The position numbers and the translations under genes are program-made. The notes under the pieces are model-generated. The model did no database searches. It was given only the letters and a program-made list of their open reading frames with translations, and was not told where the DNA came from. Positions 4,809 through 47,866 of a stretch of DNA of 64,000 nt are shown here, piece after piece; position 1 is the first letter of the stretch; each line of letters begins with the position of its first letter. This stretch comes from Candidatus Kerfeldbacteria bacterium (GTDB lineage Bacteria; Patescibacteriota; Patescibacteriia; UBA10025; JAHIVO01): assembly GCA_016214565.1 (NCBI GenBank), contig JACROE010000002.1, positions 600,007-664,006 on the forward strand, written 5' to 3'.

Positions 4809-5558
4809 CTAATTGATAATTATCCAATCCTCGGGATGGTCATGGTCATTGAGCTGGGCAGCTTGCGCGCCGTTGGCAGTTTCTAGCTTACAGGGGTTCG
4901 CGTCGCGGTACTCTTTGGTATAGCTTAGGTCGCTTCGCGTTTTAATATTGTCGGAAATGTACTGATTAAATGCTTCATCAGACATGTGGTTGAAGATTGA
5001 GTCTAGCGCGCCGAAGGGTGATTCGTAGCCGTCGATAATTTTTGTGCCAGCACCAGCGGTAGCATAGACGAGATCGATGCCATTAGTGGCGACGTGGCCG
5101 ATCAGTTCACCTGCTTTTACTTTGTCGCCCTCTGAGAGCGTATCAAGCGGCACGAGGTGTTCGAAGCTAGCATTCCAGTCGCTCCCTTTTTGCCCGAGCC
5201 ACATTTCGCCCTCCAGGCCCTGGGATGGATTGCTGAAGATGCTCATTATTTCACCGTCAAAGGGTGCGTACACTTCCACCTGCTTGCCCTTGTATTCAGG
5301 TTTCAGCATGAGATAATGCTTCATGTTGCGTAGCCGCTCGCTCTCGTCCTGCGGCACCACCACGTGTCCCTGGCAACTGCGGAATTTTGAAATTTTTTCC
5401 ACTTTACTGGTATCGATGAAATTAGCGGTGAGCTCGGGCGGACCGGATGTGCCTTTATCCATTTTCCAGACAAACACACCGCCCACGCCGATGAGGAAAA
5501 TGACGATGGCTATCCACCAGAAGCGTTTGAGGAATGGTTTTTTTAGTGGGGTGTCCAA
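4809..5558 (-). CDS. secreted/anchored protein, paralog family A (LytM/M23-like hybrid-motif segment)
   Basis: N-terminal KKPFLKRFWW plus TM anchor shared with the two upstream genes; VYAPFDGEI and GDKVKAGELIGHVATNG resemble M23 beta-barrel motifs, but canonical HxxxD/HxH are not evident. Confidence 0.5.
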   Translation of the reverse strand: MDTPLKKPFLKRFWWIAIVIFLIGVGGVFVWKMDKGTSGPPELTANFIDTSKVEKISKFRSCQGHVVVPQDESERLRNMKHYLMLKPEYKGKQVEVYAPFDGEIMSIFSNPSQGLEGEMWLGQKGSDWNASFEHLVPLDTLSEGDKVKAGELIGHVATNGIDLVYATAGAGTKIIDGYESPFGALDSIFNHMSDEAFNQYISDNIKTRSDLSYTKEYRDANPCKLETANGAQAAQLNDHDHPEDWIIIN

Positions 5559-5568
5559 ATTTTATTTA

Positions 5569-6087
5569 TTATGGGACAAAATTAATAAAGGGATCGTCTT
5601 CATTATAGTTTATTTCCTTACCTTGGCCATCGATACAAGTAACTTTTGCGTAATCTTTACCGTCAATTTGCTTTCCAGCTTTAGTTATATTACATGTAGT
5701 CGGTGGGACTAAATGACTGGCTGTGTCACGTGGTTTCTTATCGAAAATTGTAATATAGTGGCTGCAGAGGCCCGTAACATATCCTTCGCTATCGTGGTGC
5801 AGATTATCCCAAGCACGACCTATGGGGAAGGCAAAGTCGGGTAGGTAGCAATCATCTGATTCACAGACGCTATTCTCGCGGCAGATTGAGCCCCCATCAG
5901 TGGTTTTCTGGAGGCACTGGCGGGACGGCTGGTCGTATGAACGGCCAGGCTCAGTTTCGCATTGCATACGTTCGCGCCAGGCGATGCCAAATGGGCTGAT
6001 GAAGAGGGAAGTACCAGCTATGGCGAAGATGATGATAAGGACCAACCAGTAGCGTTTGAAAAAAGAAGTATGTGGCTGAACGTCCAT
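5569..6087 (-). CDS. Cys-rich secreted/anchored protein, paralog family A
   Basis: Start chosen at MDVQPHTSFFKRYWL to match the paralog N-termini; 8 Cys in the mature part. Confidence 0.5.
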   Translation of the reverse strand: MDVQPHTSFFKRYWLVLIIIFAIAGTSLFISPFGIAWRERMQCETEPGRSYDQPSRQCLQKTTDGGSICRENSVCESDDCYLPDFAFPIGRAWDNLHHDSEGYVTGLCSHYITIFDKKPRDTASHLVPPTTCNITKAGKQIDGKDYAKVTCIDGQGKEINYNEDDPFINFVP

Positions 6088-6091
6088 ATAT

Positions 6092-7381
6092 TTATCTTTC
6101 GTACTCAACAAAATTTTCGCCTAGGTCCCAGGGGCCGGTACCGCAACGGCTGCTTGAATTTTTCTTGATGCGCAATGTTTCCGCGGTAGGCATGGTTGCC
6201 AGAATACTCATGCGGGCGCCACCTCCACGATAGCTTGTCGTGTCATAGCAGTAGATCGTGCCGTCAGCGGTGACCTGGCTGAAATCCCGATTGATTGTCC
6301 CACTGGAGGCCGGGACAAAGCTATAAAAACCGCTTTCGATGCCTGCGCTGCTTGCCGATGTTCCGACTGAGAAAACTTGTTTGTCGGTTTGGATATTATC
6401 ATAGGCGAGTGCGAGATGCGGGTCTTCACCCTGGAGCTGACCCTGTAGATCATAGAACCACACGCCCTGGGCGGTTCCGACTATGTCCACATCCACCGTG
6501 CCACAGCGCGGCTCTTTCGTCCGCTTGCCATTATCCGGCCCGATTATTAAGTCGTAGTACTGATCTTTTTGTTCAGTCGGGTAGTAGTCCAAAAAGCACG
6601 AAACGAAATTTCGATCTGTGGACCATCGATCTGGGTTGGCGCGATTTACTTGTGGTTCGCGGTAGTCACTTAACCAGATGTCGAGCATGGCTGAACGTCC
6701 ATCGCCGACGGTGCCGATTTCCTCACCGGCATTAACTTCGATGTTCATCCCCATATAGCTACAGCTGCGATAGGTCTTGCCGCCTGTTTCATATTCATTA
6801 CAATTCTTTTCCAGCGCGTCCATTTCCGCCTGAATGTTCTGCGCAATTGATCCGATGTGTCCGAATTTTCCTTTCACCTCTTTGCACGGTGAGAATTCGA
6901 TGGAGTAATCAGTGATTCCGCCACTTTCCTCACTCGACTGGACGCCGACGATCCACATATCCGCTGGTGCGATCAGTGGTTTCGCATTTGATTTCAATCC
7001 TGGGGTGAAATATTGCGCGTCGGTGGTTGCCACATACAGGTGATCCGTGGGCAGGGTGTGGCCGGTCGGATTCAGATTACCCAGTGCCGTAATTTGGTAG
7101 AAATCTCCGTCTTTGAGGGGAAACACAGTGAAGAGCTCCTTGGTAGTATTGCACGAAGGGAGCGAGTCTTGCGGTTGGGTTAATTCATTTGTTGTATTGG
7201 TATTTGTTTGCGCCGTTTGATCTGTCGGCGAATCAACAAAGGTGTTTACTGAAGTATTGGTATTATCCGCATTTTTTTGTGGGATGTTCATGACAATAAT
7301 AAGCACTACCACGGGGATCAGTAGTATCCACCAGAAGCGTTTGAGGAATGACTTTTTTTGCTTGGCAGGAGGCATGTCCAT
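6092..7381 (-). CDS. secreted/anchored protein, paralog family A (M23-like segment VNAGEEIGTVGDG)
   Basis: 429 aa; N-terminal KKSFLKRFWW plus TM; T/N-rich linker; tandem with the two downstream paralogs. Confidence 0.55.
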   Translation of the reverse strand: MDMPPAKQKKSFLKRFWWILLIPVVVLIIVMNIPQKNADNTNTSVNTFVDSPTDQTAQTNTNTTNELTQPQDSLPSCNTTKELFTVFPLKDGDFYQITALGNLNPTGHTLPTDHLYVATTDAQYFTPGLKSNAKPLIAPADMWIVGVQSSEESGGITDYSIEFSPCKEVKGKFGHIGSIAQNIQAEMDALEKNCNEYETGGKTYRSCSYMGMNIEVNAGEEIGTVGDGRSAMLDIWLSDYREPQVNRANPDRWSTDRNFVSCFLDYYPTEQKDQYYDLIIGPDNGKRTKEPRCGTVDVDIVGTAQGVWFYDLQGQLQGEDPHLALAYDNIQTDKQVFSVGTSASSAGIESGFYSFVPASSGTINRDFSQVTADGTIYCYDTTSYRGGGARMSILATMPTAETLRIKKNSSSRCGTGPWDLGENFVEYER

Positions 7382-34738: not shown

Positions 34739-34758
34739 GACTGCATCGGCTTTCGCGC

Positions 34759-34814
34759 TCCGGGGTAGCTCAGCCCCGACGCTCTGGGTCGGGGTTCCGA
34801 CAGAATCGTCGGAA
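34759..34814 (+). repeat. partial 5' copy of tRNA-Asn (15 nt) fused to two YCCGAC/GTCGGR hairpins
   Basis: TCCGGGGTAGCTCAG is identical to the tRNA-Asn 5' end 83 nt downstream; followed by CCCCGAC-7-GTCGGGG and TTCCGAC-6-GTCGGAA. Confidence 0.5.
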
Positions 34815-34841: not shown

Positions 34842-34913
34842 TCCGGGGTAGCTCAGTGGTAGAGCAGGTGGCTGTTAACCACTTGGTCGCAGGTTCGAAT
34901 CCTGTCCCCGGAG
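34842..34913 (+). tRNA. tRNA-Asn(GUU), copy 1
   Basis: 72 nt; U1-A72, D-arm GCTCAGTGGTAGAGC, anticodon loop CTGTTAA, TTCGAAT T-loop. Confidence 0.8.
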
Positions 34914-35007
34914 CAGAGAATTTTTTATTATCATAAGGTGACTGCTCGCCTCGCTGCGCTTTGGCGAAGCGGGCCTGCCCCGATGTGAGCGGCTGCGAAC
35001 CATCGGG

Positions 35008-38317: not shown

Positions 38318-38391
38318 TCTGGGGTAGTTTAATTTGGTAGAACGCTGCACTGTTAATGCAGATGTTGGAGGTTCGAGTCCTCCCCCCAGAG
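38318..38391 (+). tRNA. tRNA-Asn(GUU), copy 2 (different sequence)
   Basis: 74 nt; U1-A72; TAGTTTAATTTGGTAGAACG D-arm similar to E. coli tRNA-Asn; anticodon loop CTGTTAA; TTCGAGT T-loop. Confidence 0.8.
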
Positions 38392-38489
38392 CTTGTAACG
38401 GAATAATATTGTTTGTTGATAATGAATCCCAAATTGATTGACATTTTTTTGCTAGGTCTCATACTTATAATAGAAAGGAATACATATAT

Positions 38490-38948: not shown

Positions 38949-38978
38949 TTGACAAAATGGGCTGTTTCAGCGTATAGT
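38949..38978 (+). promoter_or_regulatory. sigma70 promoter (TTGACA-18-TATAGT) of the RNHCP/radical-SAM operon
   Basis: Consensus -35, near-consensus -10; shares a 17-nt module with the promoter at 20159. Confidence 0.6.
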
Positions 38979-39034
38979 GTACGGCTCATTGACAATTTAG
39001 TACAATGAGAAACGAAGGAGGTTTTATCGTTCAG

Positions 39035-39343
39035 ATGACCAAACAATTCACACGCACGGTCGAGGATTTTACGTGCGAGCATTGCGGCCATGAGGTTAAG
39101 GGGACAGGGTATACCAACCATTGTCCAGCTTGCTTGTGGTCAAAACATGTCGACGTAAATCCGGGCGATCGTCAAGCCGAGTGTCTCGGTATGATGGAGC
39201 CAATCTCGATCGAGCAAAAGCGTGGCGATTTCGTAATCGTCCAGCGTTGTCAATCGTGCGGTCATGTTCGAAAAAACAAGGCTGCACCAGAGGACGACAT
39301 GGACGAGATCATACGTATCTCGTCGCACGGCATCCAGGGGTAG
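39035..39343 (+). CDS. RNHCP-domain Cys-rich protein (candidate substrate or partner of the downstream radical-SAM enzymes)
   Basis: AAGGAGG RBS; 102 aa with 7 Cys (CxxC...NHCPxC...C...CxxC); NHCPACLWSKHVD matches the RNHCP family signature (from memory); first gene of the operon. Confidence 0.6.
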   Translation: MTKQFTRTVEDFTCEHCGHEVKGTGYTNHCPACLWSKHVDVNPGDRQAECLGMMEPISIEQKRGDFVIVQRCQSCGHVRKNKAAPEDDMDEIIRISSHGIQG

Positions 39344-39424: not shown

Positions 39425-40786
39425 GTGGATAAGCAGAAATGTGCTGGATGTGCCGTTGGGTGCGTGCCGTTTGATTCGGTGCCGCATCTGTGTCACATCG
39501 AGACGACTTATCAATGCAATTCGGATTGTATCTTTTGTTACAATCCGGAGCGCGAAAAACCGATCAATACTTCATTGATCGATCGGGTCGTACGATCCGT
39601 GGCTGCCAGTCAGATACCGCATGTGTATCTGATTGGGGGTGAACCGAGTATGCTCGGCGTCGAAAAGCTCAATGAGTACATTGAGCTCCTCAGTGATCAT
39701 TCGTCAGTAACGATCGTTACCAACGGGCGAATCACTCTGCGCGGCATTTCGCCGCGTTTGGCCTGCTTCGGCGTACCGCTCCACGGAGCCACAGCCGAAG
39801 CGCATGATTTCATCACGCGACGACCTCATAGTTTCGATCAAGCGCTTCGCTCGATTGATTACTATGTGGGCCAGGGACATGATGTACGTTGTATTCCGGT
39901 TTTGACGGGGTATAACGCGCATGAGATCTACGATATCATTCGTATTGCCGTGGAACATGGCATGGAATCGATTTTCGTGGATCGGTATGAAGATGGCGGC
40001 ATCGGCGCGCAGCATTCGGTCAATGACCCGCGGTTGAAGCCAACCATGGATCAGTTCCGGGATGCGGTAACGCAGATGTTGCGAGCGCGGGAAGATTTTC
40101 CTCAGCTTGGTGGTCGGGTCGGATTTGGCACGGCCATCCCGTACTGCATTGATGAACGGCTGATTCGGGAAGGCATGACTGCCAATTGTGGCGTGGGGTC
40201 TACATTCTGCGCCATCAACCCATCGGGTGACGTCCGGCTCTGCAACCAATCACAACTGGTGTTTGGTAATGTGTTGCTGGAATCGCTTGAGGCGATTTGG
40301 CAGCAGCGCTCACTCGATACGTTCCGCGATTTGTCGTGGGTCGAGGAGCCGTGCCGCTCGTGTCCGTTGCTGGACGAATGCGTCTGTGGCTGCAAGGTCG
40401 ACGCAAACTGTTCGGATCGATTCTGTATCGATTACGCAGTACGTGGGTTGATCAAGCCGCCCATCGATGTCAGCGTGATACAGCCGACTGCTACCACGGA
40501 GGTTTCGTTTCCTGAAGCCTATCGTCAGTTTTTCGTCAATCGCTACACGAAGATACTCGATCGCCATCCGGAACGATTCTTGGTGACGCGGTATCAGACG
40601 GTGACATTGAATGACGGCGCACTCGAAGTGCTTCGAGCTATCATTGACAAGAGGTTATTGACTGAACAATCGGTCATTACCTATTTTGCCGATGAGATCC
40701 CCGAGCCGGAATTGCGGCGGGCTATCTCGCTGTTTATCCGGGCTGGCGCACTTGATGAAACGGAGGTGACTCATGCCGGTACATGA
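39425..40786 (+). CDS. radical SAM/SPASM-domain enzyme with C-terminal PqqD-like RiPP recognition element
   Basis: GTG start with AAAGGAG RBS; CNSDCIFC (Cx3Cx2C); downstream Cys cluster CRSCPLLDECVCGCK (SPASM/twitch); C-terminal LNDGALEVLRAIIDKRLLTEQSVITYF...LFIRAGAL resembles PqqD/RRE. Confidence 0.75.
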   Translation: MDKQKCAGCAVGCVPFDSVPHLCHIETTYQCNSDCIFCYNPEREKPINTSLIDRVVRSVAASQIPHVYLIGGEPSMLGVEKLNEYIELLSDHSSVTIVTNGRITLRGISPRLACFGVPLHGATAEAHDFITRRPHSFDQALRSIDYYVGQGHDVRCIPVLTGYNAHEIYDIIRIAVEHGMESIFVDRYEDGGIGAQHSVNDPRLKPTMDQFRDAVTQMLRAREDFPQLGGRVGFGTAIPYCIDERLIREGMTANCGVGSTFCAINPSGDVRLCNQSQLVFGNVLLESLEAIWQQRSLDTFRDLSWVEEPCRSCPLLDECVCGCKVDANCSDRFCIDYAVRGLIKPPIDVSVIQPTATTEVSFPEAYRQFFVNRYTKILDRHPERFLVTRYQTVTLNDGALEVLRAIIDKRLLTEQSVITYFADEIPEPELRRAISLFIRAGALDETEVTHAGT

Positions 40787-42260
40787 TGTGCATTGGGAAA
40801 TCACTAACGCGTGCAATCTGCGCTGTTTACACTGTGTTCAGTGTTCAGGTGCGCCACGTACTGGTGAGCTCAATCCGGACGAAGCGGTGCAGATCATCGA
40901 TCGATTAGCAGCAGCAGGCGTGCAGCGTATTTGCTGGACCGGCGGAGAACCGTTTGTCCGGCGTGATTTCGCGACGCTGCTTCAGCAGGCGCATCAGGCA
41001 GGCATTGTGCAAGCCGTCATCACTAACGGGTATCTGGTTCGGCAAGGGCAGCTCATGATGCTTCAGCAATTGGCCATCCCGCTCGGCGTCAGCTTGGATG
41101 CGACGACTGCAGAATTGCATGATGCCCTGCGCGGTGACGGGTCATTTGACCGGGCGATGCAGACGATTGTGTCTGCGCGAGCGCAGGCCATACCCGTAAC
41201 GCTGTATGCAACGGTTACTCGGGGAAATATCCACGAGTTGCCATCGCTCATCGCTCTCGCCAAGCACTTTGATTGCGGTATTCATGTCAATGAAGTGTCA
41301 TTGGCTGGTCGCGCCGAAGCGATTTGGCCCCGTCTGGCACTGAATGAAGCGTTGCGCGAACAGCTGACCGTGATGGTTGCCGATGCAGCCCGCGAGCATT
41401 TCGGTGAAACGCCGGAGTGGGCTCCGGACGGATGCTGGGCTGACGGCTCGGCTGTCTACCTTCGCTCTGATGGTCAAGTGTTCCTCTGCAGTGAGCAGGT
41501 GCAGTATGCACACAGCGCCGCACTGGGGCACATTCTGGAGCATTCACTTGATGAACTGCTTCAGACCGACTTGATCAGTCAGTGTAGTGGCAGCGCATGT
41601 TCGTATCGCGTATTATCAAGTCCGCGCGTGACGATGATTATCAATCAGCCGATCAGGTGCCCGCTGGTTTCCGTTGAGTCGAAGTTAGAAACCCTGGACG
41701 CACTCAATCAGGCACTCGACGCGTTGTATGCGCCGTTTGCCGATGTGTGTGTCGCGTGCCAGGATAAGTGTTGCCAGGGATTCGTCTGGCTGATGCCTGA
41801 GGAATTGACTCGTCTCCAGCAGTGTGAGGTCGATACGGTCGAAGTGAATGACGCCGCGTCGTTCATCCATTCTTTTCCTGAAAAAGAAGACGGTTCAATC
41901 GACGTATCGGTTCCGTCGCCGCTCTGTAGTCAGCTCTGTTCGCTCCAGCCGCGTCGCTGCCGAGTGTATGCCGATCGTCCTTTTTCCTGTCGCCTCTACC
42001 CGATTGGGTTGGAGGTGCGGGAAGATGGCATGCTGGTCTGGGCACTTCATCAGGATTGTCAGATTACTCGATATCTGGGGAGCGAGGGACTGCTCGAGGA
42101 ATTCGAACGGCGAGCGCTGCAGATTCTGGACAGCATGTGTCCGGAATTGTATGCTAGTATTATTGAAGCGTATCGCAAGGTACATATTCTGATAACTTTC
42201 CCCCTTGGGGGAAATAACATTCGCACTTTAAAGGAGGTGGTTAAGCTTGTCAAAGTGTAA
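40773..42260 (+). CDS. radical SAM enzyme fused to a C-terminal YkgJ-type (CxxCxxxCC) Fe-S/zinc-chelating domain
   Basis: 14-nt overlap with the upstream gene; CNLRCLHC (Cx3Cx2C); C-terminal CVACQDKCCQGF...CRVYADRPFSCRLYP resembles the YkgJ/UPF0153 family. Confidence 0.7.
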   Translation: MPVHDVHWEITNACNLRCLHCVQCSGAPRTGELNPDEAVQIIDRLAAAGVQRICWTGGEPFVRRDFATLLQQAHQAGIVQAVITNGYLVRQGQLMMLQQLAIPLGVSLDATTAELHDALRGDGSFDRAMQTIVSARAQAIPVTLYATVTRGNIHELPSLIALAKHFDCGIHVNEVSLAGRAEAIWPRLALNEALREQLTVMVADAAREHFGETPEWAPDGCWADGSAVYLRSDGQVFLCSEQVQYAHSAALGHILEHSLDELLQTDLISQCSGSACSYRVLSSPRVTMIINQPIRCPLVSVESKLETLDALNQALDALYAPFADVCVACQDKCCQGFVWLMPEELTRLQQCEVDTVEVNDAASFIHSFPEKEDGSIDVSVPSPLCSQLCSLQPRRCRVYADRPFSCRLYPIGLEVREDGMLVWALHQDCQITRYLGSEGLLEEFERRALQILDSMCPELYASIIEAYRKVHILITFPLGGNNIRTLKEVVKLVKV

Positions 42261-42370
42261 GGCTGTCTTAGACAGCACAAAAGTGACCAAGATCAATGTC
42301 ACCAAGGGCACGCCGCCCAAAAGCGACAAGACGAAGTAATGGTCAAATAGCCGAAAGGCTACGTATTCAT

Positions 42371-42408
42371 GTGGCGCGTTTGCATTTTTGCAGAGGCGCC
42401 ACTTTTTT
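42371..42408 (+). terminator. rho-independent terminator closing the radical-SAM operon
   Basis: GTGGCGC...GGCGCCAC stem followed by TTTTTT. Confidence 0.6.
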
Positions 42409-42421
42409 ATTCATCTATCCC

Positions 42422-42450
42422 TTGCCAGCGGTAGGGTTTTCTGGTACACT
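42422..42450 (+). promoter_or_regulatory. typA promoter (TTGCCA-17-TACACT)
   Basis: Hexamers by eye, 50 nt upstream of typA ATG. Confidence 0.45.
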
Positions 42451-42502
42451 CGTGCCACGTATGTGTCCTGCAACAGGACCATTTATTTTATCCGTCGATT
42501 TT

Positions 42503-44284
42503 ATGGAAATACGAAACATCGCCATTATTGCTCACGTCGACCACGGGAAGACACTGCTGACTGACGCGATTATGCGGCAGACCGGCATGGTAACTGATGA
42601 CGCGGTCAGTATGGATTCCAATGTGCTGGAAAAAGAGCGCGGTATTACGATTTATTCGAAAAACGCCTCGGTTTTTTACCGTGGCACGAAAATCAATATT
42701 GTGGACACGCCGGGCCATGCGGATTTTGGCTCTGAAGTTGAACGAGTACTTCGTTCAATTGATAGTGTGTTATTGGTAGTCGATGCGCAGGAAGGCCCCA
42801 TGCCCCAGACGCGGTTTGTATTGAAGAAATCGCTTGAGCTCGGCCTGAAACCGATCGTGGTCATTAATAAAATTGATAAGCCGGCAGCTGATCCTGATTT
42901 GGCTCAAGAGGAAGTATTTGAATTATTTCTTGATTTAGGCGCCAGTGACGAACAATTGGATTTTACTACCGTGTACGCCATCGGGCGCGACGGTATTGCG
43001 AAGATGAATTTAGCCGATGAATCGAAAGATCTCACCCCGTTGCTTGATACTATTCTATTGAAAGTAAAACCCGCCAATGCTGACATCAGTCTTCCATTCA
43101 GATTTCAACCATTTAATCTCGCCTACGATAATTTTCTTGGCCGTTTAGCTATTGGTCGGATGTATGAGGGCACCATTAAAACAGGTGGCCCGGCCGTGCG
43201 CAAGGGAACCGATGGTACGGTACAGAACGGAAAAATTACGAAATTGTTTTCATTTAAAGGAATGCAGCGTGAGGAAGTAACCGAGGCGGTTGCTGGCGAT
43301 ATTGTCATGGTGGCGGGGTTTGCCGATATTGATATTGGCGATACGATTTGTGCTGATGCCAGTCAGGAGTCGTTGCCCGCTATTCTGATTGATGAGCCGA
43401 CCATATCACTACAACTATTGGTGAACAATTCTCCGTTTGGCGGACGCGAGGGAACCTACGTTACCAGTCGGCAGATTCGGGAGCGATTAGAGAAAGAATT
43501 GGAAGTCAACGTGGGTTTGCGCATTGATTTTTCTTCAGACACGTATACCGTGTTTGGCCGCGGCGAATTACATATCGCTATACTTCTAGAAAACATGCGT
43601 CGCGAAGGATATGAAGTGCAAGTGTCACAACCGCATGTCATTAATAAGGAAATTGACGGAAAACTCAACGAACCTTTTGAAGAAGCGACCGTCGATGTTC
43701 CCGAAGCCCAATCCGGCGTGGTCATTGAAAAGCTCGGCAAACGCGCGGGCGTGATGGTCCACATGGAGAACGAGGCCGGACAAGCGCGGATGCTCTTTGA
43801 GATTCCCACGCGTGGATTGTTAGGGTACCGAAATGAATTTATCGTTGATACGAAAGGCGAGGGTATCCTGTGCTCGCGTTTTATCGGGTATCGACCGCAT
43901 GTCGGGGAAATCAAGAAGCGCGACGTCGGTTCGATGGTGTCTATGGCCACCGGCAAGGCGCTCGGGTACTCGCTCAATAATTTGCAGACCCGAGGCACTC
44001 TGTATATTTCGCCAGCTACTGAAGTATATGAGGGTATGGTCATCGGTAATACCTCAAAAGGCGATGATATGGCAGTCAATCCGATCAAAGGAAAGAAGTT
44101 AAGCAATATGCGCGCTTCGGGTACTGATGATGCGATCCAACTCGAACCGCCGATGGAGCTAACTATTGAGCGGGGATTGGAAGTGATGGCTGATGATGAG
44201 TATCTCGAGATTACTCCGAAGAGCGTCCGTCTGCGGAAGCAGCATCTGACGGTCAACGAGCGGCGCCGCGCCGGGGAAATATAA
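42503..44284 (+). CDS. typA: translational GTPase TypA/BipA
   Basis: Start at [19 protein letters not shown] (G1); DTPGHADF (G3); NKIDK (G4); EF-G-like domains; upstream in-frame extension of the ORF track is 5' UTR. Confidence 0.9.
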
Positions 44285-44342
44285 TTTTAATTTATCCACA
44301 GGCACGCTCATTGGCGGTCTTGTGTTATTTGTGGGTTGTGAT

Positions 44343-44362
44343 ATATTCATAACATTGAATAT
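44343..44362 (+). promoter_or_regulatory. candidate ArsR/SmtB-type operator (ATATTCA-N6-TGAATAT) overlapping the regulator start codon
   Basis: Perfect 7-6-7 inverted repeat immediately at the ATG of the ArsR-family gene. Confidence 0.45.
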
Positions 44363-44834
44363 GTTACCCACCCTATTTCAACCACATAGTCAGCTTTTTA
44401 AGGCTCTCGCCAGTCCAAAACGACTGGAAATTGTGCATTTATTGCGCACTCACTGCATGCGGGTGGAGGAAATTCAGCGCATGACCGGTATGACCCAGGC
44501 AAATGTCAGTCAGCACCTGCAGGTACTGCGCCGGTGTAATGTCGTAGTGCCGCAGCGAACGGGCAAAGCTATTAGTTATTGCTTATCGCATCCCCGTATC
44601 GTCCACGCCCTGGATGACGTGCAGCAAATTTTAGTCGACCGGAAAAAGGTTAATTCGGCGCAGAGTGCCCACAAGACCCGCGTGCCGATCCCCCAAGTGA
44701 TTGATCCGGTCTGCGGCATGTCTATCTCGCCACAAACGGCGGTGCTGATGGCGAATTATCGCCGCTCCACGTATTATTTTTGTGCATCAGGATGCCATGC
44801 AGCATTTACTAAAAAACCAGAACACTATGTATAA
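44361..44834 (+). CDS. ArsR/SmtB-family metalloregulator fused to a C-terminal YHS/TRASH metal-binding domain
   Basis: wHTH (LASPKRLEIVHLL...EIQRMTGMTQANVSQHLQVLR); C-terminal DPVCGMSI...YYFCASGC is YHS/TRASH-like. Confidence 0.65.
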   Translation: MLPTLFQPHSQLFKALASPKRLEIVHLLRTHCMRVEEIQRMTGMTQANVSQHLQVLRRCNVVVPQRTGKAISYCLSHPRIVHALDDVQQILVDRKKVNSAQSAHKTRVPIPQVIDPVCGMSISPQTAVLMANYRRSTYYFCASGCHAAFTKKPEHYV

Positions 44835-45291
44835 GAAAACAATTATTGCGGTTCTTATTTTTTCATTCTTCGGTGTGCTTTTGTCCGGTTATCTTTCATA
44901 TTGGAATCTATTTGGTCCCAGCTGCCACGTCGGCCCCTTGAACTGGTTGGTTTCCTGCGGTGGTCCCGGGAAAGTGTTAATTTTTGGTCAGCCTACCTGC
45001 ATCTATGGTTTTGGCATGTTTTTCAGCGTGATGGTTTTGTCAGTCATTGCGCTGGCCACCCTACCCAAGCGCGGTTTGGTGCGCGCCCTGATGACGCTTG
45101 GCGTAGTTGGCACATTATTTTCGGCGGGTCTTATTATTTATGAAGTGTGGATTCTTAAGCTGGCGTTTACGGGATTGCCCGCATGCGTGTATGGATTTGT
45201 TCTTTACGTTGGCATATTGATATCAAGTGTGCTCGCCAGTCGCTCTTTTCAGACCGCACAATCAACTAACTCTCACAATCAGCCAATATGA
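44827..45291 (+). CDS. integral membrane protein with four conserved Cys (thiol-disulfide oxidoreductase-like, DsbB/VKOR analog?)
   Basis: About 4 TM helices; Cys in periplasmic loops (SCHVGPLNWLVSC, PTCIY, PACVY); family assignment uncertain. Confidence 0.35.
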   Translation: MYKKTIIAVLIFSFFGVLLSGYLSYWNLFGPSCHVGPLNWLVSCGGPGKVLIFGQPTCIYGFGMFFSVMVLSVIALATLPKRGLVRALMTLGVVGTLFSAGLIIYEVWILKLAFTGLPACVYGFVLYVGILISSVLASRSFQTAQSTNSHNQPI

Positions 45292-45659
45292 CCATCGATC
45301 AAATCATTGGTATCCTACTCATCATTCTCGTTATTGCATTTTTTGCACTTTGGCTCAGATTCCAGCGCCGTCAAGAGAAGGCGGATTTCAAAGATAATGC
45401 CCAAGAAATTACGGTGCTGGTCAAAGGCGCCTATGATCCAAATGTGATAACGGTTCGTGCCGGCGTTCCCTTACGCATCCACTTCAATCGGCAAGAAGAC
45501 ACGGATTGTTCGCGGTATGTGACATTTGACGGGCTTAATATACGAAAAGATCTAAAGGCATTTGCCATGACTGATGTTGAATTCACACCAAAAAATCCTG
45601 GTGAAATCTCGTTTACGTGTGATATGGGGATGTATCAGGGAAAAATAATTGTAACCTAA
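45288..45659 (+). CDS. membrane-anchored cupredoxin-like metal-binding protein (C-terminal CDMGMYQG motif)
   Basis: N-terminal TM; domain homologous to the C-terminus of the 47901-49019 protein; 4-nt overlap upstream, 5 nt before copA. Confidence 0.5.
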
Positions 45660-45664
45660 TATAT

Positions 45665-47866
45665 ATGTCATCAAACGAAACTATTATTTCACTCAGGGGC
45701 ATGCACTGTGCCAGTTGTGCCCAGCTTATCGAGCGCCGGTTGCGAAAAGTTCCGGGCGTGGAGCATGCCATGGTTAATTATGGGACAGAGCGGGCGCATG
45801 TGACTCACGCGTCAGATGCCGTCGCCCCTGAACAATTGATCAAAACCGTGGTTGATGCCGGCTACCAGGGGACTATTCTCGATCGAGAACATAACACCGA
45901 AGCAGTCGATAAGGAAAAAGAAATTCAAAAAATCCGTCGTACGTTTTGGATCAGTCTGGTGCTGGCTATTCCGGTTTTGATATTGAGCATGGGGATGAAG
46001 ATTGTACCGCAGATTGAGGAAATTCCATATCGCGAGTGGTTGCAGTTTCTCTTTGCTACCCCGATCCAATTTTGGGCTGGCTGGCAGTTTTATCGAGGGA
46101 CCTGGGGTGCGCTGCGTGCTCGCACGGCTAACATGGATAGCCTGATCGCGCTCGGGACATCGACTGCCTATGTCTATTCATTATTTGTGGTGGGCGGTCT
46201 GATTGATGGCGAGGTTTATTTCGAAATTGGTAGCATCCTGATTGCTTTTGTCTTACTCGGCAAATGGCTCGAGGCGCGGGCGAAAGGCAAGACCAACGAG
46301 GCGATTAAGAAATTGATGGGATTAGCGCCCAAGACTGCCATTGTTATCCGTGATGGCGTCGAACAGGAGATTGCCCTGGATATGGTGCAGGTTGGCGATG
46401 TAATACGCGTCAAACCAGGGGCTAAAATCCCGGTGGATGGCACGGTCGCTGAAGGATCTTCTTCAGTGGATGAGTCTATGGTGACGGGAGAAAGCATTCC
46501 CGTGGAGAAGCATGCAGGTGATCCAGTTATTGGTGGCACCCTGAATATCCACGGGTCATTTACTTTTACCGCAACGAAGGTCGGGAAAGAAACGTTGCTC
46601 GCCGGCATTATACAGCTCGTAGAGCAGGCACAAGCATCAAAAGCGCCGATCCAGCGATTTGCCGATCGAGTCTCAGCTTATTTTGTGCCGACGGTTATTG
46701 CTATTTCTTTGATAACATTTATATCGTGGTATTTCTTGGCTGGTCAGGATTTCGTTTCTAGTTTATTAGCCTTTGTGGCCGTACTGGTGATTGCTTGCCC
46801 CTGCGCACTCGGCTTGGCTACTCCAACGGCCATTATTACCGGCACGGGGTTAGGCGCGAGCCATGGCATCCTGATCAAGGGCGGGGAAGCACTTGAGGCA
46901 GCGCGGAAAATTGATACTGTCGTATTTGATAAAACCGGCACCCTGACCCACGGCAAACCAGATGTCACTGATATTCACGCCACGAATCGAGGTCAGGAAC
47001 AGTACGTACTGACGGTCGCTGCTTCACTGGAGAAACAATCAGAGCATCCGCTCGCAGAAGCAATCGTGCGGAAAGCGCACGAGGAGCAGTTCGCCTTGTT
47101 TCCTGTTATTGATTTCGCGGCAGTCCCCGGGCATGGCGTGAAAGGCGTGATCGACGACAAACCAGTGTATCTGGGGAATCGGAAGTTAATGAAACAGATT
47201 GGCGTATCCTACGTTGAGGCCAGCGAGGCAATCGATGCGCTGGAGCATCAGGGTAAAACAGTTATGCTGTTAGCCGTCGGTAAAGCCCACGTTGGATTTA
47301 TTGCCGTGGCTGATACGGTGAAAGAAAGTTCCCGTGAAGCAATCACCGCATTACAGAAAATCGGTATTGGTGTACTGATGATCACCGGTGATAATGCACA
47401 GACCGCCCAAGCGATTGCCCAGCAGGTGGGCATCACTCGAGTGCTATCTGAAGTATTACCAAAAGATAAAGCGCACGAAGTAGTGGAATTGCAGCGGACC
47501 GGCGCACGGGTTGCTTTTGTCGGAGATGGCATTAATGACGCACCAGCGTTGGCTCAAGCGGATTTGGGAATCGCTATCGGCTCAGGCACGGATGTGGCAC
47601 TGGAAACCGGACAAATGGTTCTTGTTAAAAATGATTTACGCGACGTGGTGCGCGGTATCAGTTTATCCCGTCGCACATTTCGAAAAATTGTGCAGAATCT
47701 ATTTTGGGCATTAATTTATAATGTTGCAGGCATTCCTATTGCCGCGGGAGTCTTCTTCCCCATTTTTGGTTGGCAATTGCGGCCAGAATTGGCGGGAGCG
47801 GCGATGGCATTATCCAGTATCTCAGTGGTTTTGAATTCGTTATTATTAAAACGATGGCGACCATGA
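45665..47866 (+). CDS. copA: copper-translocating P1B-type ATPase
   Basis: N-terminal HMA (GMHCASCA), CPC transmembrane metal site, DKTGTLT phosphorylation motif, GDGINDAP hinge. Confidence 0.95.

What the first reader, a model, noticed from the sequence alone, without database searches (positions are those of the whole stretch)
41650..42260. Radical-SAM core fused to YkgJ/UPF0153-type CxxCxxxCC domain
The C-terminal 200 aa contain CVACQDKCCQGFVWLMPEE and CRVYADRPFSCRLYPI. These are characteristic of the YkgJ putative Fe-S/zinc-chelating family, which is normally a stand-alone small protein. I do not recall this family described in fusion with an rSAM core. The fusion suggests an additional redox cluster or electron relay.
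Basis: partly seen in the sequence, partly recalled or inferred. Interest (0 to 1): 0.55.

Follow-up and report, generated by a model that had tools for sequence, protein, structure and literature searches.

The report
Peptide-maturation operon with YkgJ-type iron-sulfur module
The cysteine-rich tail is a real YkgJ-type metal-binding module, fused here to a second radical SAM enzyme, and it belongs to an undescribed four-gene operon of reduced-genome (CPR) bacteria that most likely modifies a tiny peptide always beginning Met-Ser-Lys-Cys.

Summary
ORF 40773-42260 (495 aa; 100% identical to a 'radical SAM protein' of a Candidatus Kerfeldbacteria MAG) has three parts. These are a radical SAM core (CX3CX2C), a SkfB-like 'twitch' auxiliary-cluster region, and a 190-aa C-terminal module homologous to PF03692 (YkgJ/CxxCxxCC). 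Scanned alone, that module scores 25.3 bits against a cutoff of 23. All 21 homologues hit the family, and 10 of 10 distant hits of the reverse profile search are true PF03692 proteins.

The module is not an appendage peculiar to this rSAM core. It is a self-contained unit of a conserved operon: RNHCP zinc-ribbon protein, rSAM/SPASM enzyme with a winged-helix tail, (second rSAM), YkgJ-like module, then a 21-56 aa peptide with an invariant N-terminus MSKC (window 42247-42339).

Among 80 related metagenome loci the module is fused to the second rSAM in 28, a separate gene in 16, and present with no second rSAM in 15. In Firmicute-like loci with ABC exporters it stands alone or is fused to the other rSAM.

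The two characterised relatives, FliB and DpdM, are metal-dependent N-methyltransferases. A catalytic role on the peptide is therefore at least as likely as an electron relay. I found no name or paper for the system.

The parts
38949..38978 (+). Sigma-70-like promoter candidate (TTGACA-18-TATAGT, 11 of 12) upstream of the operon
   Evidence: This is a consensus match only; function is inferred from its position.
39005..39343 (+). RNHCP-domain protein with CxxC pairs (zinc-ribbon or rubredoxin-like); first gene of the cassette. The true start is probably the ATG at 39035 (MTKQF...).
   Evidence: PF12647 E 4e-31; weak similarity to rubredoxin-like domains (RUBY_RBDX E 1e-4; NCBIfam rubrerythrin E 2e-5). 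Found upstream of the rSAM/SPASM gene in nearly all CPR-type loci; present in 52 of the 53 determinable metagenome loci with enough upstream sequence to test. Absent from the Firmicute-like loci.
39425..40786 (+). rSAM1: radical SAM/SPASM peptide-maturase-like enzyme. CX3CX2C at C31/C35/C38 (39515-39538). Full 7-Cys SPASM motif at residues 255-334 (40187-40426). The core enzyme of the system.
   Evidence: PF04055 E 6e-15, SPASM E 2e-10. 42-82% identity across all system types. Closest solved relatives are PqqE (E 4e-17) and SuiB (E 2e-15). All NCBIfam equivalog models score far below their cutoffs.
40508..40783 (+). C-terminal ~92-aa extension of rSAM1; winged-helix-like, a candidate peptide-recognition (RRE-like) element
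   Evidence: Conserved LVTRYQT-x-LD...GAL pattern. The profile weakly hits the BlaI/MecI winged-helix repressor (E 0.02) and MarR (E 0.3). No Pfam PqqD hit. Inconclusive.
40773..42260 (+). The ORF of the finding: rSAM2 + twitch + YkgJ-like fusion, 495 aa. Its start overlaps the end of rSAM1 by 14 nt.
   Evidence: AF2 model pLDDT 87.6, pTM 0.82.
40797..41225 (+). Radical SAM core of rSAM2 (residues 9-151). The [4Fe-4S]/SAM motif C14-x3-C18-x2-C21 lies at 40812-40835.
   Evidence: PF04055 E 5e-21. The Cys are conserved in 20 of 21 homologues; the exception is N-terminally truncated.
41433..41660 (+). Twitch-type (half-SPASM) auxiliary-cluster region: C221-x12-G234-x4-C239, C276, C296, all invariant
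   Evidence: SPASM hit covers profile positions 1-49 of 67 (22.2 bits, cutoff 21.5). Invariant Cys. The best solved fold is SkfB 6efn (Foldseek E 9e-19; phmmer E 2e-19).
41661..41687 (+). Fusion junction. In the split form the rSAM2 gene ends here (...N-x4-C-P-x...) and the YkgJ-like gene starts 3 nt later (M-x-K-I-K-T-I-D-E-L).
   Evidence: L086 5080-5997 / 6001-6576 and L096 4075-4998 / 5001-5573, aligned.
41679..42257 (+). YkgJ/PF03692-like Cys-cluster module (residues 303-495). The Pfam match covers residues 326-411 (41748-42005). Seven Cys are invariant across all architectures: C326, C329, C334, C385, C396, C406, C429. H426 is nearly invariant.
   Evidence: Domain AF2 model pLDDT 85.8. 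No similar solved structure by sequence or by fold.
42231..42239 (+). Shine-Dalgarno sequence AAGGAGGTG for the peptide gene, inside the 3' end of the fusion ORF
   Evidence: An AGGAGG-type Shine-Dalgarno sequence lies upstream of the peptide start in nearly all of the 24 related loci compared.
42247..42339 (+). Small ORF (30 aa, TTG start): MSKCKAVLDSTKVTKINVTKGTPPKSDKTK. Candidate substrate or precursor peptide. The N-terminus MSKC is invariant, the pattern K-[IV]-x-x-[IL]-x-V is conserved, and the tail is variable and Lys-rich.
   Evidence: 77 database clusters, all labelled 'hypothetical'. Amino-acid-level selection: Ser2 is encoded by 6 different codons including both AGY and TCN, and Leu8 by 6 codons.
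42371..42411 (+). Intrinsic-terminator-like hairpin (GUGGCGCGUUUGCA-UUUU-UGCAGAGGCGCCAC) followed by a U-tract; ends the operon
   Evidence: MFE -31.7 kcal/mol for the 81-nt stretch, z = -5.2, and 0 of 200 shuffles fold as well.

Best explanation
The 495-aa protein is a gene fusion of two separate components of a peptide-maturation (RiPP-like) operon.

The N-terminal 300 aa are an accessory radical SAM enzyme (rSAM2). It is SkfB-like, with one SAM cluster and one twitch auxiliary cluster.

The C-terminal 190 aa are a self-contained YkgJ/PF03692-type module with seven invariant cysteines. These most likely form two metal or Fe-S sites (4+3), so one site may have a free coordination position.

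The core of the system is the upstream rSAM/SPASM enzyme (rSAM1, with a winged-helix tail), the YkgJ-like module, and the small peptide encoded immediately downstream (MSKC...). The RNHCP zinc-ribbon protein, rSAM2 and, in relatives, a B12-binding rSAM are add-ons.

Proposed mechanism (inferred):
- rSAM1 binds the conserved strand-like segment K-[IV]-x-x-[IL]-x-V of the peptide through its C-terminal winged-helix element.
- rSAM1 then performs radical chemistry on the invariant N-terminal MSKC motif, most plausibly a cross-link involving Cys4.
- The YkgJ-like module acts on the same peptide as a metal-dependent tailoring enzyme. By analogy with FliB and DpdM this would be SAM-dependent N-methylation of a Lys or N-terminal amine. 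It is not a passive electron wire.
- rSAM2 adds a further radical modification, and its fusion to the module keeps the two tailoring activities in one complex.

Shown: the domain identities, the gene order, the three architectures, the peptide's conservation and its coding status. Inferred: everything about chemistry and metal content.
For: Domain identity: PF03692; rSAM plus twitch, SkfB-like.

Modularity: a split form with a 3-nt intergenic gap. Counts of 28 fused, 16 split and 15 with no rSAM2 among the 59 determinable loci of 80. Fusion to rSAM1 instead in P0177.

Obligatory association: a YkgJ-like module follows rSAM1 in 59 of 62 loci with enough sequence, and the peptide is present in 54 of those 59. 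The misses are mostly at contig ends.

The peptide is a real gene. The invariant MSKC is encoded with freely varying synonymous codons, and an AGGAGG-type Shine-Dalgarno sequence precedes it in nearly all of the 24 loci compared. In the window it sits between the fusion ORF and a strong terminator.

RiPP-like behaviour. A B12-rSAM accessory gene is present in at least 17 loci and is followed by a second peptide copy in 5 loci. ABC exporter pairs flank the Firmicute-like loci, whose peptides are amphipathic and cationic. rSAM1's nearest solved relatives are the peptide cross-linkers PqqE and SuiB.

Catalytic rather than relay role. The module persists where rSAM2 and RNHCP are both absent. FliB, which carries a CX4CX3CC motif similar to that of PF03692, holds a [4Fe-4S] cluster needed for SAM-dependent Lys methylation (PMC8598068). 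DpdM, a DUF3109 protein homologous to YkgJ, methylates the aminomethyl group of preQ1 and is modelled with two Cys sites (PMC10516641). The window domain also weakly hits DUF3109.
Against: No biochemical data exist for any member. The module gives no NCBIfam hit at all at E<=10, so no similarity to any FliB model was detected. Its DUF3109 hits are far below threshold (E about 0.03-0.05). The methyltransferase analogy therefore rests on superfamily membership only.

Lys5 is not invariant (L, T, V or G in some peptides), leaving only Lys3 and the N-terminus as fixed amine targets.

The RRE assignment of the rSAM1 tail is weak (E 0.02 to a winged-helix repressor). The CPR-type loci encode no protease or exporter, which is unusual for a secreted RiPP.

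Metal sites could be structural zinc. I had no access to model coordinates, so I could not check the Cys geometry or the interface between the domains.
Confidence: 0.55

Rival explanations
1. First reader's reading. The YkgJ-like domain only adds one or two Fe-S clusters that relay electrons to the radical SAM or auxiliary clusters. It would be a built-in ferredoxin for rSAM2, or for rSAM1 in the other fusion.
For: Seven invariant Cys and a near-invariant His. A protein with a similar Cys motif (FliB) binds a redox-active [4Fe-4S] cluster. The module is fused to one or the other rSAM, and Rosetta-stone logic says they interact. The half-SPASM of rSAM2 lacks the second auxiliary cluster, which an extra domain could replace.
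Against: The module is present and equally conserved where rSAM2 is absent (15 loci). rSAM1, its constant partner, already has a complete 7-Cys SPASM domain. The CPR operons carry a separate rubredoxin-like candidate donor, RNHCP. The Firmicute-like loci drop RNHCP but keep the module. At 190 aa with many conserved non-Cys residues (W339, E344, N359, E414, Y467), it is larger and more elaborate than a simple ferredoxin.
Confidence: 0.27
2. The module is a non-catalytic peptide-binding or scaffold domain. It would be an RRE surrogate or chaperone with structural zinc, holding the MSKC peptide (perhaps through Cys4 ligating an open metal site) for the rSAM enzymes.
For: Obligatory co-occurrence with the peptide. 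One ORF (P0136) reads straight from the module into the peptide. Seven invariant Cys, a 4+3 split, would leave one open coordination site that a substrate thiolate could fill (inference). Pfam describes the family only as 'putative zinc- or iron-chelating'.
Against: rSAM1 already carries a conserved winged-helix tail that is a better RRE candidate. Both characterised superfamily members are enzymes.
Confidence: 0.12
3. The small ORF is not a substrate. The two rSAM enzymes and the module act on a small-molecule cofactor (tetrapyrrole, molybdopterin or similar), as the NirJ, AhbD and MoaA similarities might suggest.
For: NCBIfam lists AhbD, NirJ and MoaA among the best sub-threshold hits. The CPR loci have no protease or exporter.
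Against: All those hits are several-fold below their cutoffs (for example 104 against 500 bits). The peptide gene is present in 54 of 59 loci with amino-acid-level selection on MSKC. It is duplicated together with a B12-rSAM. The flanking genes are otherwise unrelated between loci.
Confidence: 0.06

Closest known systems
YkgJ / PF03692 (CxxCxxCC, formerly UPF0153; COG0727) family
   Same: The C-terminal module matches the Pfam model above threshold when scanned alone. It shares the N-terminal Cys triad or tetrad and the C-x-[IV]-[YH]-x-x-R-P-x-x-C-R-x-Y-P motif. A profile built from the module retrieves genuine PF03692 proteins.
   Different: This is a distinct subfamily of about 190 aa with a helical C-terminal extension and an H-x-x-C motif. 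The 'CC' doublet is reduced to a single Cys in most members. The module is tied to an rSAM/SPASM enzyme and a peptide gene. Generic YkgJ proteins are stand-alone and of unknown function.
FliB flagellin lysine N-methyltransferase (PMC8598068) and DpdM preQ1 N-methyltransferase (DUF3109, a YkgJ homologue; PMC10516641)
   Same: Both have a Cys-rich N-terminal motif of the same type (CX4CX3CC and CxxxCxxCC). FliB binds an oxygen-sensitive [4Fe-4S] cluster and needs SAM. DpdM is modelled with two Cys-lined metal sites. Both methylate a primary amine, and the peptide here carries an invariant Lys3 and a free N-terminus.
   Different: No significant sequence match: the module gives no NCBIfam hit and its DUF3109 hits have E about 0.03-0.05. 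The substrates differ (flagellin; DNA-bound preQ1). Neither enzyme is linked to a radical SAM/SPASM partner. The functional transfer is an analogy, not a membership claim.
SkfB (sporulation killing factor thioether synthase; PDB 6efn) and other twitch-domain rSAM RiPP maturases
   Same: Best sequence and fold match for residues 1-300. The rSAM core is followed by a single auxiliary cluster in a half-SPASM domain. SkfB acts on a peptide Cys.
   Different: There is no N-terminal RRE domain in rSAM2. The NCBIfam SkfB model scores 89 bits against a cutoff of 300. rSAM2 carries the YkgJ-like module, and it is dispensable in a quarter of related loci.
rSAM/SPASM peptide systems with an RRE: PqqE/PqqD, MftC/MftB, SuiB/StrB
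   Same: rSAM1 has the full 7-Cys SPASM motif. Its nearest solved relatives are PqqE and SuiB. A small peptide gene lies adjacent, and there is a winged-helix-like recognition candidate.
   Different: The winged-helix element is C-terminal and fused. The conserved, presumably modified, motif lies at the extreme N-terminus of the peptide, a core followed by a 'follower' as in bottromycin (from my own knowledge). This differs from the usual leader-then-core order. All equivalog models are far below cutoff.

Membership tests
Radical SAM superfamily (PF04055) | CX3CX2C cluster motif and a Pfam match above the gathering score | tested here: met
   C14/C18/C21; 75.9 bits against a cutoff of 29.5. 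The motif is conserved in the family.
SPASM domain (PF13186 / TIGR04085), full form | 7-Cys motif CX9-15GX4C ... CX2CX5CX3C ... C binding two auxiliary clusters | tested here: not met
   In the finding's ORF only the first half is present (C221-x12-G-x4-C239; profile positions 1-49 of 67). This is a twitch-type region. The neighbouring rSAM1 does meet the full motif.
Twitch-domain rSAM enzymes (SkfB-like) | Half-SPASM beta-hairpin with one auxiliary cluster; fold similarity to SkfB, BtrN or MoaA | tested here: met
   Foldseek top hit is SkfB 6efn, E 9e-19. Four invariant Cys: 221, 239, 276, 296. Actual cluster binding cannot be tested here.
SkfB / StsB sactipeptide maturase equivalogs (TIGR04403, NF045574) | Score above the curated equivalog cutoff | tested here: not met
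   89 bits against 300 and 121 bits against 625.
YkgJ / PF03692 CxxCxxCC | Pfam match at or above the gathering score (23 bits) | tested here: met
   20.9 bits in the full-length protein but 25.3 bits for the isolated domain. 21 of 21 homologues match. Reciprocal check gave 10 of 10.
YkgJ / PF03692 CxxCxxCC | Canonical CxxCxxCC spacing with 8 conserved Cys | tested here: inconclusive
   The window has C-x2-C-x3-CC. Family-wide only C-x2-C-x4-C is conserved, and there are 7 invariant Cys plus a near-invariant His. The second motif CxxYxxRPxxCRxYP is fully present.
YkgJ / PF03692 CxxCxxCC | Binds zinc or iron (Fe-S) | not testable with these tools
   Needs metal analysis or spectroscopy of residues 303-495.
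FliB-type / DpdM-type (DUF3109) N-methyltransferases | Significant sequence match to the family model | tested here: not met
   No NCBIfam hit at E<=10. PF11307 E 0.03-0.05 with a cutoff of 33.5 bits.
RiPP biosynthetic gene cluster (general) | Short precursor-peptide gene adjacent to the modifying enzymes and conserved with them | tested here: met
   Peptide gene present in 54 of 59 determinable loci. Codon-level evidence of translation and selection.
RiPP biosynthetic gene cluster (general) | RiPP recognition element (PqqD-like winged helix) | tested here: inconclusive
   The rSAM1 C-terminal tail profile hits winged-helix repressors at E 0.02-0.3. No PqqD Pfam hit.
RiPP biosynthetic gene cluster (general) | Leader protease and/or exporter | tested here: not met
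   None in the window or in CPR-type loci. ABC transporter pairs are present only in the Firmicute-like loci.

The most novel reading that the evidence does not exclude
The YkgJ-like module is the founding example of a new class of RiPP tailoring enzyme. It would be an Fe-S or metal-dependent, non-Rossmann enzyme that works with an rSAM/SPASM partner on the invariant N-terminal Met-Ser-Lys-Cys of a leaderless peptide. The CPR version, which has no exporter or protease, would make an intracellular modified peptide or peptide-derived cofactor rather than an antibiotic. This would give the large orphan YkgJ/UPF0153 family its first peptide substrate.
Probability: 0.3. Interest if true: 0.8.

Novelty: new variant of a known kind. 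Interest (0 to 1): 0.62.

Why it matters
YkgJ/PF03692 is a large family that has been without an assigned function for decades. Here it has a defined genetic partner set and a 21-56 aa candidate substrate with a four-residue invariant motif, so its chemistry becomes directly testable by co-expression and mass spectrometry.

The cassette is kept in many lineages of genome-reduced Patescibacteria (Kerfeld-, Magasanik-, Pace-, Taylorbacteria, Microgenomates) and in a human-gut Firmicute (CAG:822). This suggests a useful physiological product.

It also adds a modular rSAM peptide-modification family that has no curated model in NCBIfam or Pfam. Its core is rSAM/SPASM, the YkgJ-like module and the peptide. 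The optional parts are a twitch rSAM, a B12-rSAM, RNHCP and ABC exporters.

Tried and rejected
- NCBIfam and Pfam scans of the peptide and of the C-terminal domain. There was no NCBIfam hit and only one chance-level Pfam hit for the peptide.
It was repeated with a 52-aa member placed first.
- PqqD/RRE identification of the rSAM1 tail by Pfam failed. Only weak winged-helix hits were found in the PDB.
- Literature searches for RNHCP, YkgJ plus radical SAM, PF03692/UPF0153/COG0727, CPR plus rSAM plus RiPP, and the MSKCK string gave no description of this system.
- Genomic-island idea. The operon lies about 600 nt downstream of a tRNA-Asn and has raised GC3, but no att-like direct repeats were found, so this was not pursued.
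- Assembly or frameshift artefact as the origin of the fusion. Rejected because of 28 independent fused loci and 21 full-length homologues.
- Treating rSAM2 as the module's primary partner. Rejected because 15 loci lack rSAM2 altogether.
Full report
**1. What is at the coordinates**

The region 41650-42260 is the 3' part of ORF 40773..42260 (+), 495 aa. The protein is 100% identical to a GenBank 'MAG: radical SAM protein [Candidatus Kerfeldbacteria bacterium]' on a 1.1-Mb contig.

Pfam on the whole protein gives the following:
- Radical_SAM at residues 9-151, E 5e-21.
- A partial SPASM match at residues 221-269, covering profile positions 1-49 of 67.
- PF03692 CxxCxxCC at residues 326-411, at 20.9 bits. 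This is just under the 23-bit gathering score.

Scanned alone, the C-terminal 196 aa score 25.3 bits (E 2.6e-5), and all 21 family members match PF03692. I also ran the reverse test. A profile of the C-terminal domain searched against 1.84 billion proteins gave 485 hits at E<=1e-3. Ten of ten sampled distant hits are independent PF03692 members at 25-55 bits. The domain call is therefore sound.

One detail needs correcting. The window has C-x2-C-x3-CC, but across the family only C-x2-C-x4-C is conserved. The invariant set across all architectures is seven Cys (326, 329, 334, 385, 396, 406, 429) plus a near-invariant His426.

**2. Anatomy of the protein**

AlphaFold2 with the 21-sequence alignment gives a confident model (pLDDT 87.6, pTM 0.82). 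Its best solved neighbour is the RiPP maturase SkfB (Foldseek E 9e-19; phmmer E 2e-19), covering only the first ~300 residues. That part is an rSAM core plus a twitch-type half-SPASM region with four invariant Cys: C221-x12-G-x4-C239, C276 and C296.

**3. The surroundings change the picture**

The ORF is the third gene of a tight operon:
- A strong promoter-like site at 38949-38978.
- An RNHCP-domain protein with CxxC pairs at 39005-39343 (PF12647 E 4e-31, with weak rubredoxin-like hits).
- An rSAM/SPASM enzyme, 'rSAM1', at 39425-40786. It has a complete 7-Cys SPASM motif and a conserved ~92-aa C-terminal tail.
- The fusion ORF, whose start overlaps the end of rSAM1 by 14 nt.
- A 30-codon ORF at 42247-42339, overlapping the 3' end of the fusion ORF. 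It has a TTG start preceded by AAGGAGGTG and encodes MSKCKAVLDSTKVTKINVTKGTPPKSDKTK.
- A strong terminator-like hairpin with a U-tract at 42371-42411 (z = -5.2).

**4. The small ORF is a real, conserved gene**

The same ORF follows the fusion gene or the module gene in most related loci examined; in L016/L114 and L093/L094 it lies upstream of rSAM1 instead. These comprise five loci found through homologues (L001-L005, three distinct places) and the full-length genome matches among L006-L021. L021 is cut at the contig end.

The N-terminus M-S-K-C is invariant. Residues 5-18 follow [KLTVG]-A-[VI]-[LIVM]-D-x-x-K-[IV]-x-x-[IL]-x-V in the CPR type. The tail varies in length (21-56 aa in total) and is rich in Lys, Glu, Pro and Gln.

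Codon usage shows selection on the amino acids. Ser2 is encoded by six codons, including both AGY and TCN. Leu8 is also encoded by six codons. An AGGAGG-type Shine-Dalgarno sequence lies upstream in nearly all of the 24 loci compared.

The 5.8-billion-protein database holds 77 clusters of this peptide, all labelled 'hypothetical' or 'unknown'. No Pfam or NCBIfam model exists for it.

**5. The YkgJ-like module is an independent, obligatory unit; the fusion is one of three architectures**

The profile search recovered the ~490-aa fusions and also many ~185-200-aa stand-alone proteins that match over the whole domain.

In the split form the order is RNHCP, rSAM1, a 305-307-aa rSAM2, the 190-aa module, then the peptide, with only 3 nt between rSAM2 and the module. 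L086/L088 and L096/L097 show this arrangement. L091 is also split but has no RNHCP gene called on the contig. The split point corresponds to window residues ~297-303.

I scanned metagenome contigs with an rSAM1 alignment and classified the 80 loci locally:

| Arrangement downstream of rSAM1 | Loci |
|---|---|
| rSAM2 fused to the YkgJ-like module | 28 |
| rSAM2 and the module as separate genes | 16 |
| Module directly after rSAM1, no rSAM2 | 15 |
| Undetermined (contig ends) | 18 |
| Odd cases | 3 |

The peptide is present in 54 of the 59 determinable loci.

A second system type, apparently from Firmicutes (SpoVA genes lie nearby), has no RNHCP and no rSAM2. It consists of rSAM1, the module (separate, or fused to the C-terminus of rSAM1 as in the 649-aa P0177), the peptide and a pair of ABC transporters. 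Its peptides are:
- MSKCKSSELSAPITILNVLSVLKPKKK
- MSKCKAVALVRLVTLIRVLKRK
- MSKCGSEITLMDVKSIRVIKKN
- MSKCKGKLTVSNITSIVILKKTK

Only MSKC and a downstream [IV]-x-x-[IL]-x-V segment are shared with the CPR type.

A B12-binding rSAM is a further optional neighbour in at least 17 loci. In L002, L003, L103, L107 and L113 it is directly followed by a second copy of the peptide gene. One database ORF (P0136) reads from the module straight into the peptide.

**6. How it most likely works**

Shown:
- The core is a conserved set of three parts: an rSAM/SPASM enzyme, a YkgJ-like module and an MSKC peptide.
- The enzyme set is modular, as in RiPP clusters.
- rSAM1's closest solved relatives are the peptide cross-linking enzymes PqqE and SuiB.
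- The rSAM1 tail weakly resembles winged-helix domains (BlaI E 0.02).

Inferred:
- The peptide is the substrate.
- The conserved strand-like segment (residues ~12-18) is the recognition element, bound by the rSAM1 tail.
- The invariant N-terminal MSKC is the site of chemistry. This is a core-then-follower order, as in bottromycin (from my own knowledge).

For the module itself two facts weigh against a pure electron-relay role. First, its constant partner rSAM1 already has two auxiliary clusters. Second, the module is retained where the candidate electron donor RNHCP and rSAM2 are absent.

The only characterised proteins with this kind of Cys motif are enzymes that methylate primary amines. 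FliB has a CX4CX3CC motif and an oxygen-sensitive [4Fe-4S] cluster, and carries out SAM-dependent Lys methylation (PMC8598068). DpdM is a DUF3109 protein and a YkgJ homologue. It has a CxxxCxxCC motif split over two modelled metal sites and methylates preQ1 in vivo (PMC10516641). The window domain also gives weak DUF3109 hits.

Seven invariant Cys suggest a 4+3 arrangement with one open coordination site, for SAM or for the substrate's Cys4. I therefore favour a catalytic tailoring role, most specifically N-methylation of Lys3 or the N-terminal amine. I put this specific chemistry at about 0.3 and the general statement 'acts on the peptide, not merely a relay' at about 0.55-0.6.

The fusion to rSAM2 would simply keep two tailoring activities together.

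**7. Comparison with known systems**

The N-terminal part works like, and folds like, SkfB-type twitch rSAM maturases, but it fails all equivalog cutoffs. The C-terminal part is a member of PF03692, in a distinct subfamily. It is not a detectable member of the FliB or DUF3109 families.

The operon as a whole is an rSAM RiPP-like system. It has no curated model in NCBIfam release 20 and no paper in the searchable library.

**8. Verdict**

- Novelty: a new variant of a known kind.
- Interest: 0.62. The finding gives an orphan Fe-S/zinc family a concrete, testable substrate. It also reveals a conserved peptide system in CPR bacteria and in a gut Firmicute.

Noticed in passing
L002:4514-6014 (-); also L003, L103, L107, L113 and at least 12 further loci: A B12-binding radical SAM gene (441 aa; PF02310 + PF04055) recurs beside the cassette. 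In five loci it is directly followed by a second, identical or near-identical, copy of the MSKC peptide gene. It is absent from the window.
   Followed up: partly
P0136 (224 aa): A stand-alone YkgJ-like ORF runs without a stop codon into ...GVCMSKCKAVLDSEKVEEIKVESKEEDKEEGEKTEE. This is either a natural enzyme-substrate fusion or a missed stop or sequencing error.
   Followed up: no
L089:6001-8050 and L090 (P0177, 649 aa): In a spore-former-like contig (SpoVA genes nearby) the YkgJ-like module is fused to the C-terminus of the rSAM/SPASM enzyme, not to a second rSAM. It is followed by MSKCKSSELSAPITILNVLSVLKPKKK and then by an ABC transporter, with a further ABC-transporter pair upstream.
   Followed up: partly
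window 34842-34914 and 38318-38392; 34756-34773: There are two tRNA-Asn(GTT) genes 3.4 kb apart, the second about 600 nt upstream of the operon. An 18-nt tRNA-5'-end-like repeat lies 83 nt before the first. The operon's GC3 (0.57-0.59) is higher than the window mean (0.47). No att-like direct repeats were found, so an island origin is unproven.
   Followed up: partly
window 42296-44284: The mechanical ORF start of the TypA/BipA-like GTPase is probably about 200 nt too early, because it would run through the operon's terminator hairpin. The GTPase motif begins at [17 protein letters not shown], near 42503. This comes from reading the translation, not from a domain search.
   Followed up: no
window 44322-47866: There appears to be a metal-handling cluster downstream. 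It comprises an ArsR-like regulator with a C-terminal Cys-rich (TRASH/YHS-like) tail, a membrane protein, a small cupredoxin-like ORF and a P-type ATPase with GMHCASC, CPC and DKTGT motifs (copper-exporter-like). This is from reading the translations only.
   Followed up: no
L018 (Firmicutes bacterium CAG:822, HF990866.1) and peptide cluster P0333: A human-gut genome carries the complete RNHCP, rSAM1, fusion and peptide cassette at about 30% identity. Its peptide sequence was seen on 69 contigs, so the system is not confined to environmental CPR bacteria.
   Followed up: partly
L008, L016, L017 (record titles): Some MAGs carrying the cassette are labelled Gammaproteobacteria or Thermococci in automatically binned assemblies. 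Given the CPR-like neighbours these labels may be mis-assignments. Not checked.
   Followed up: no
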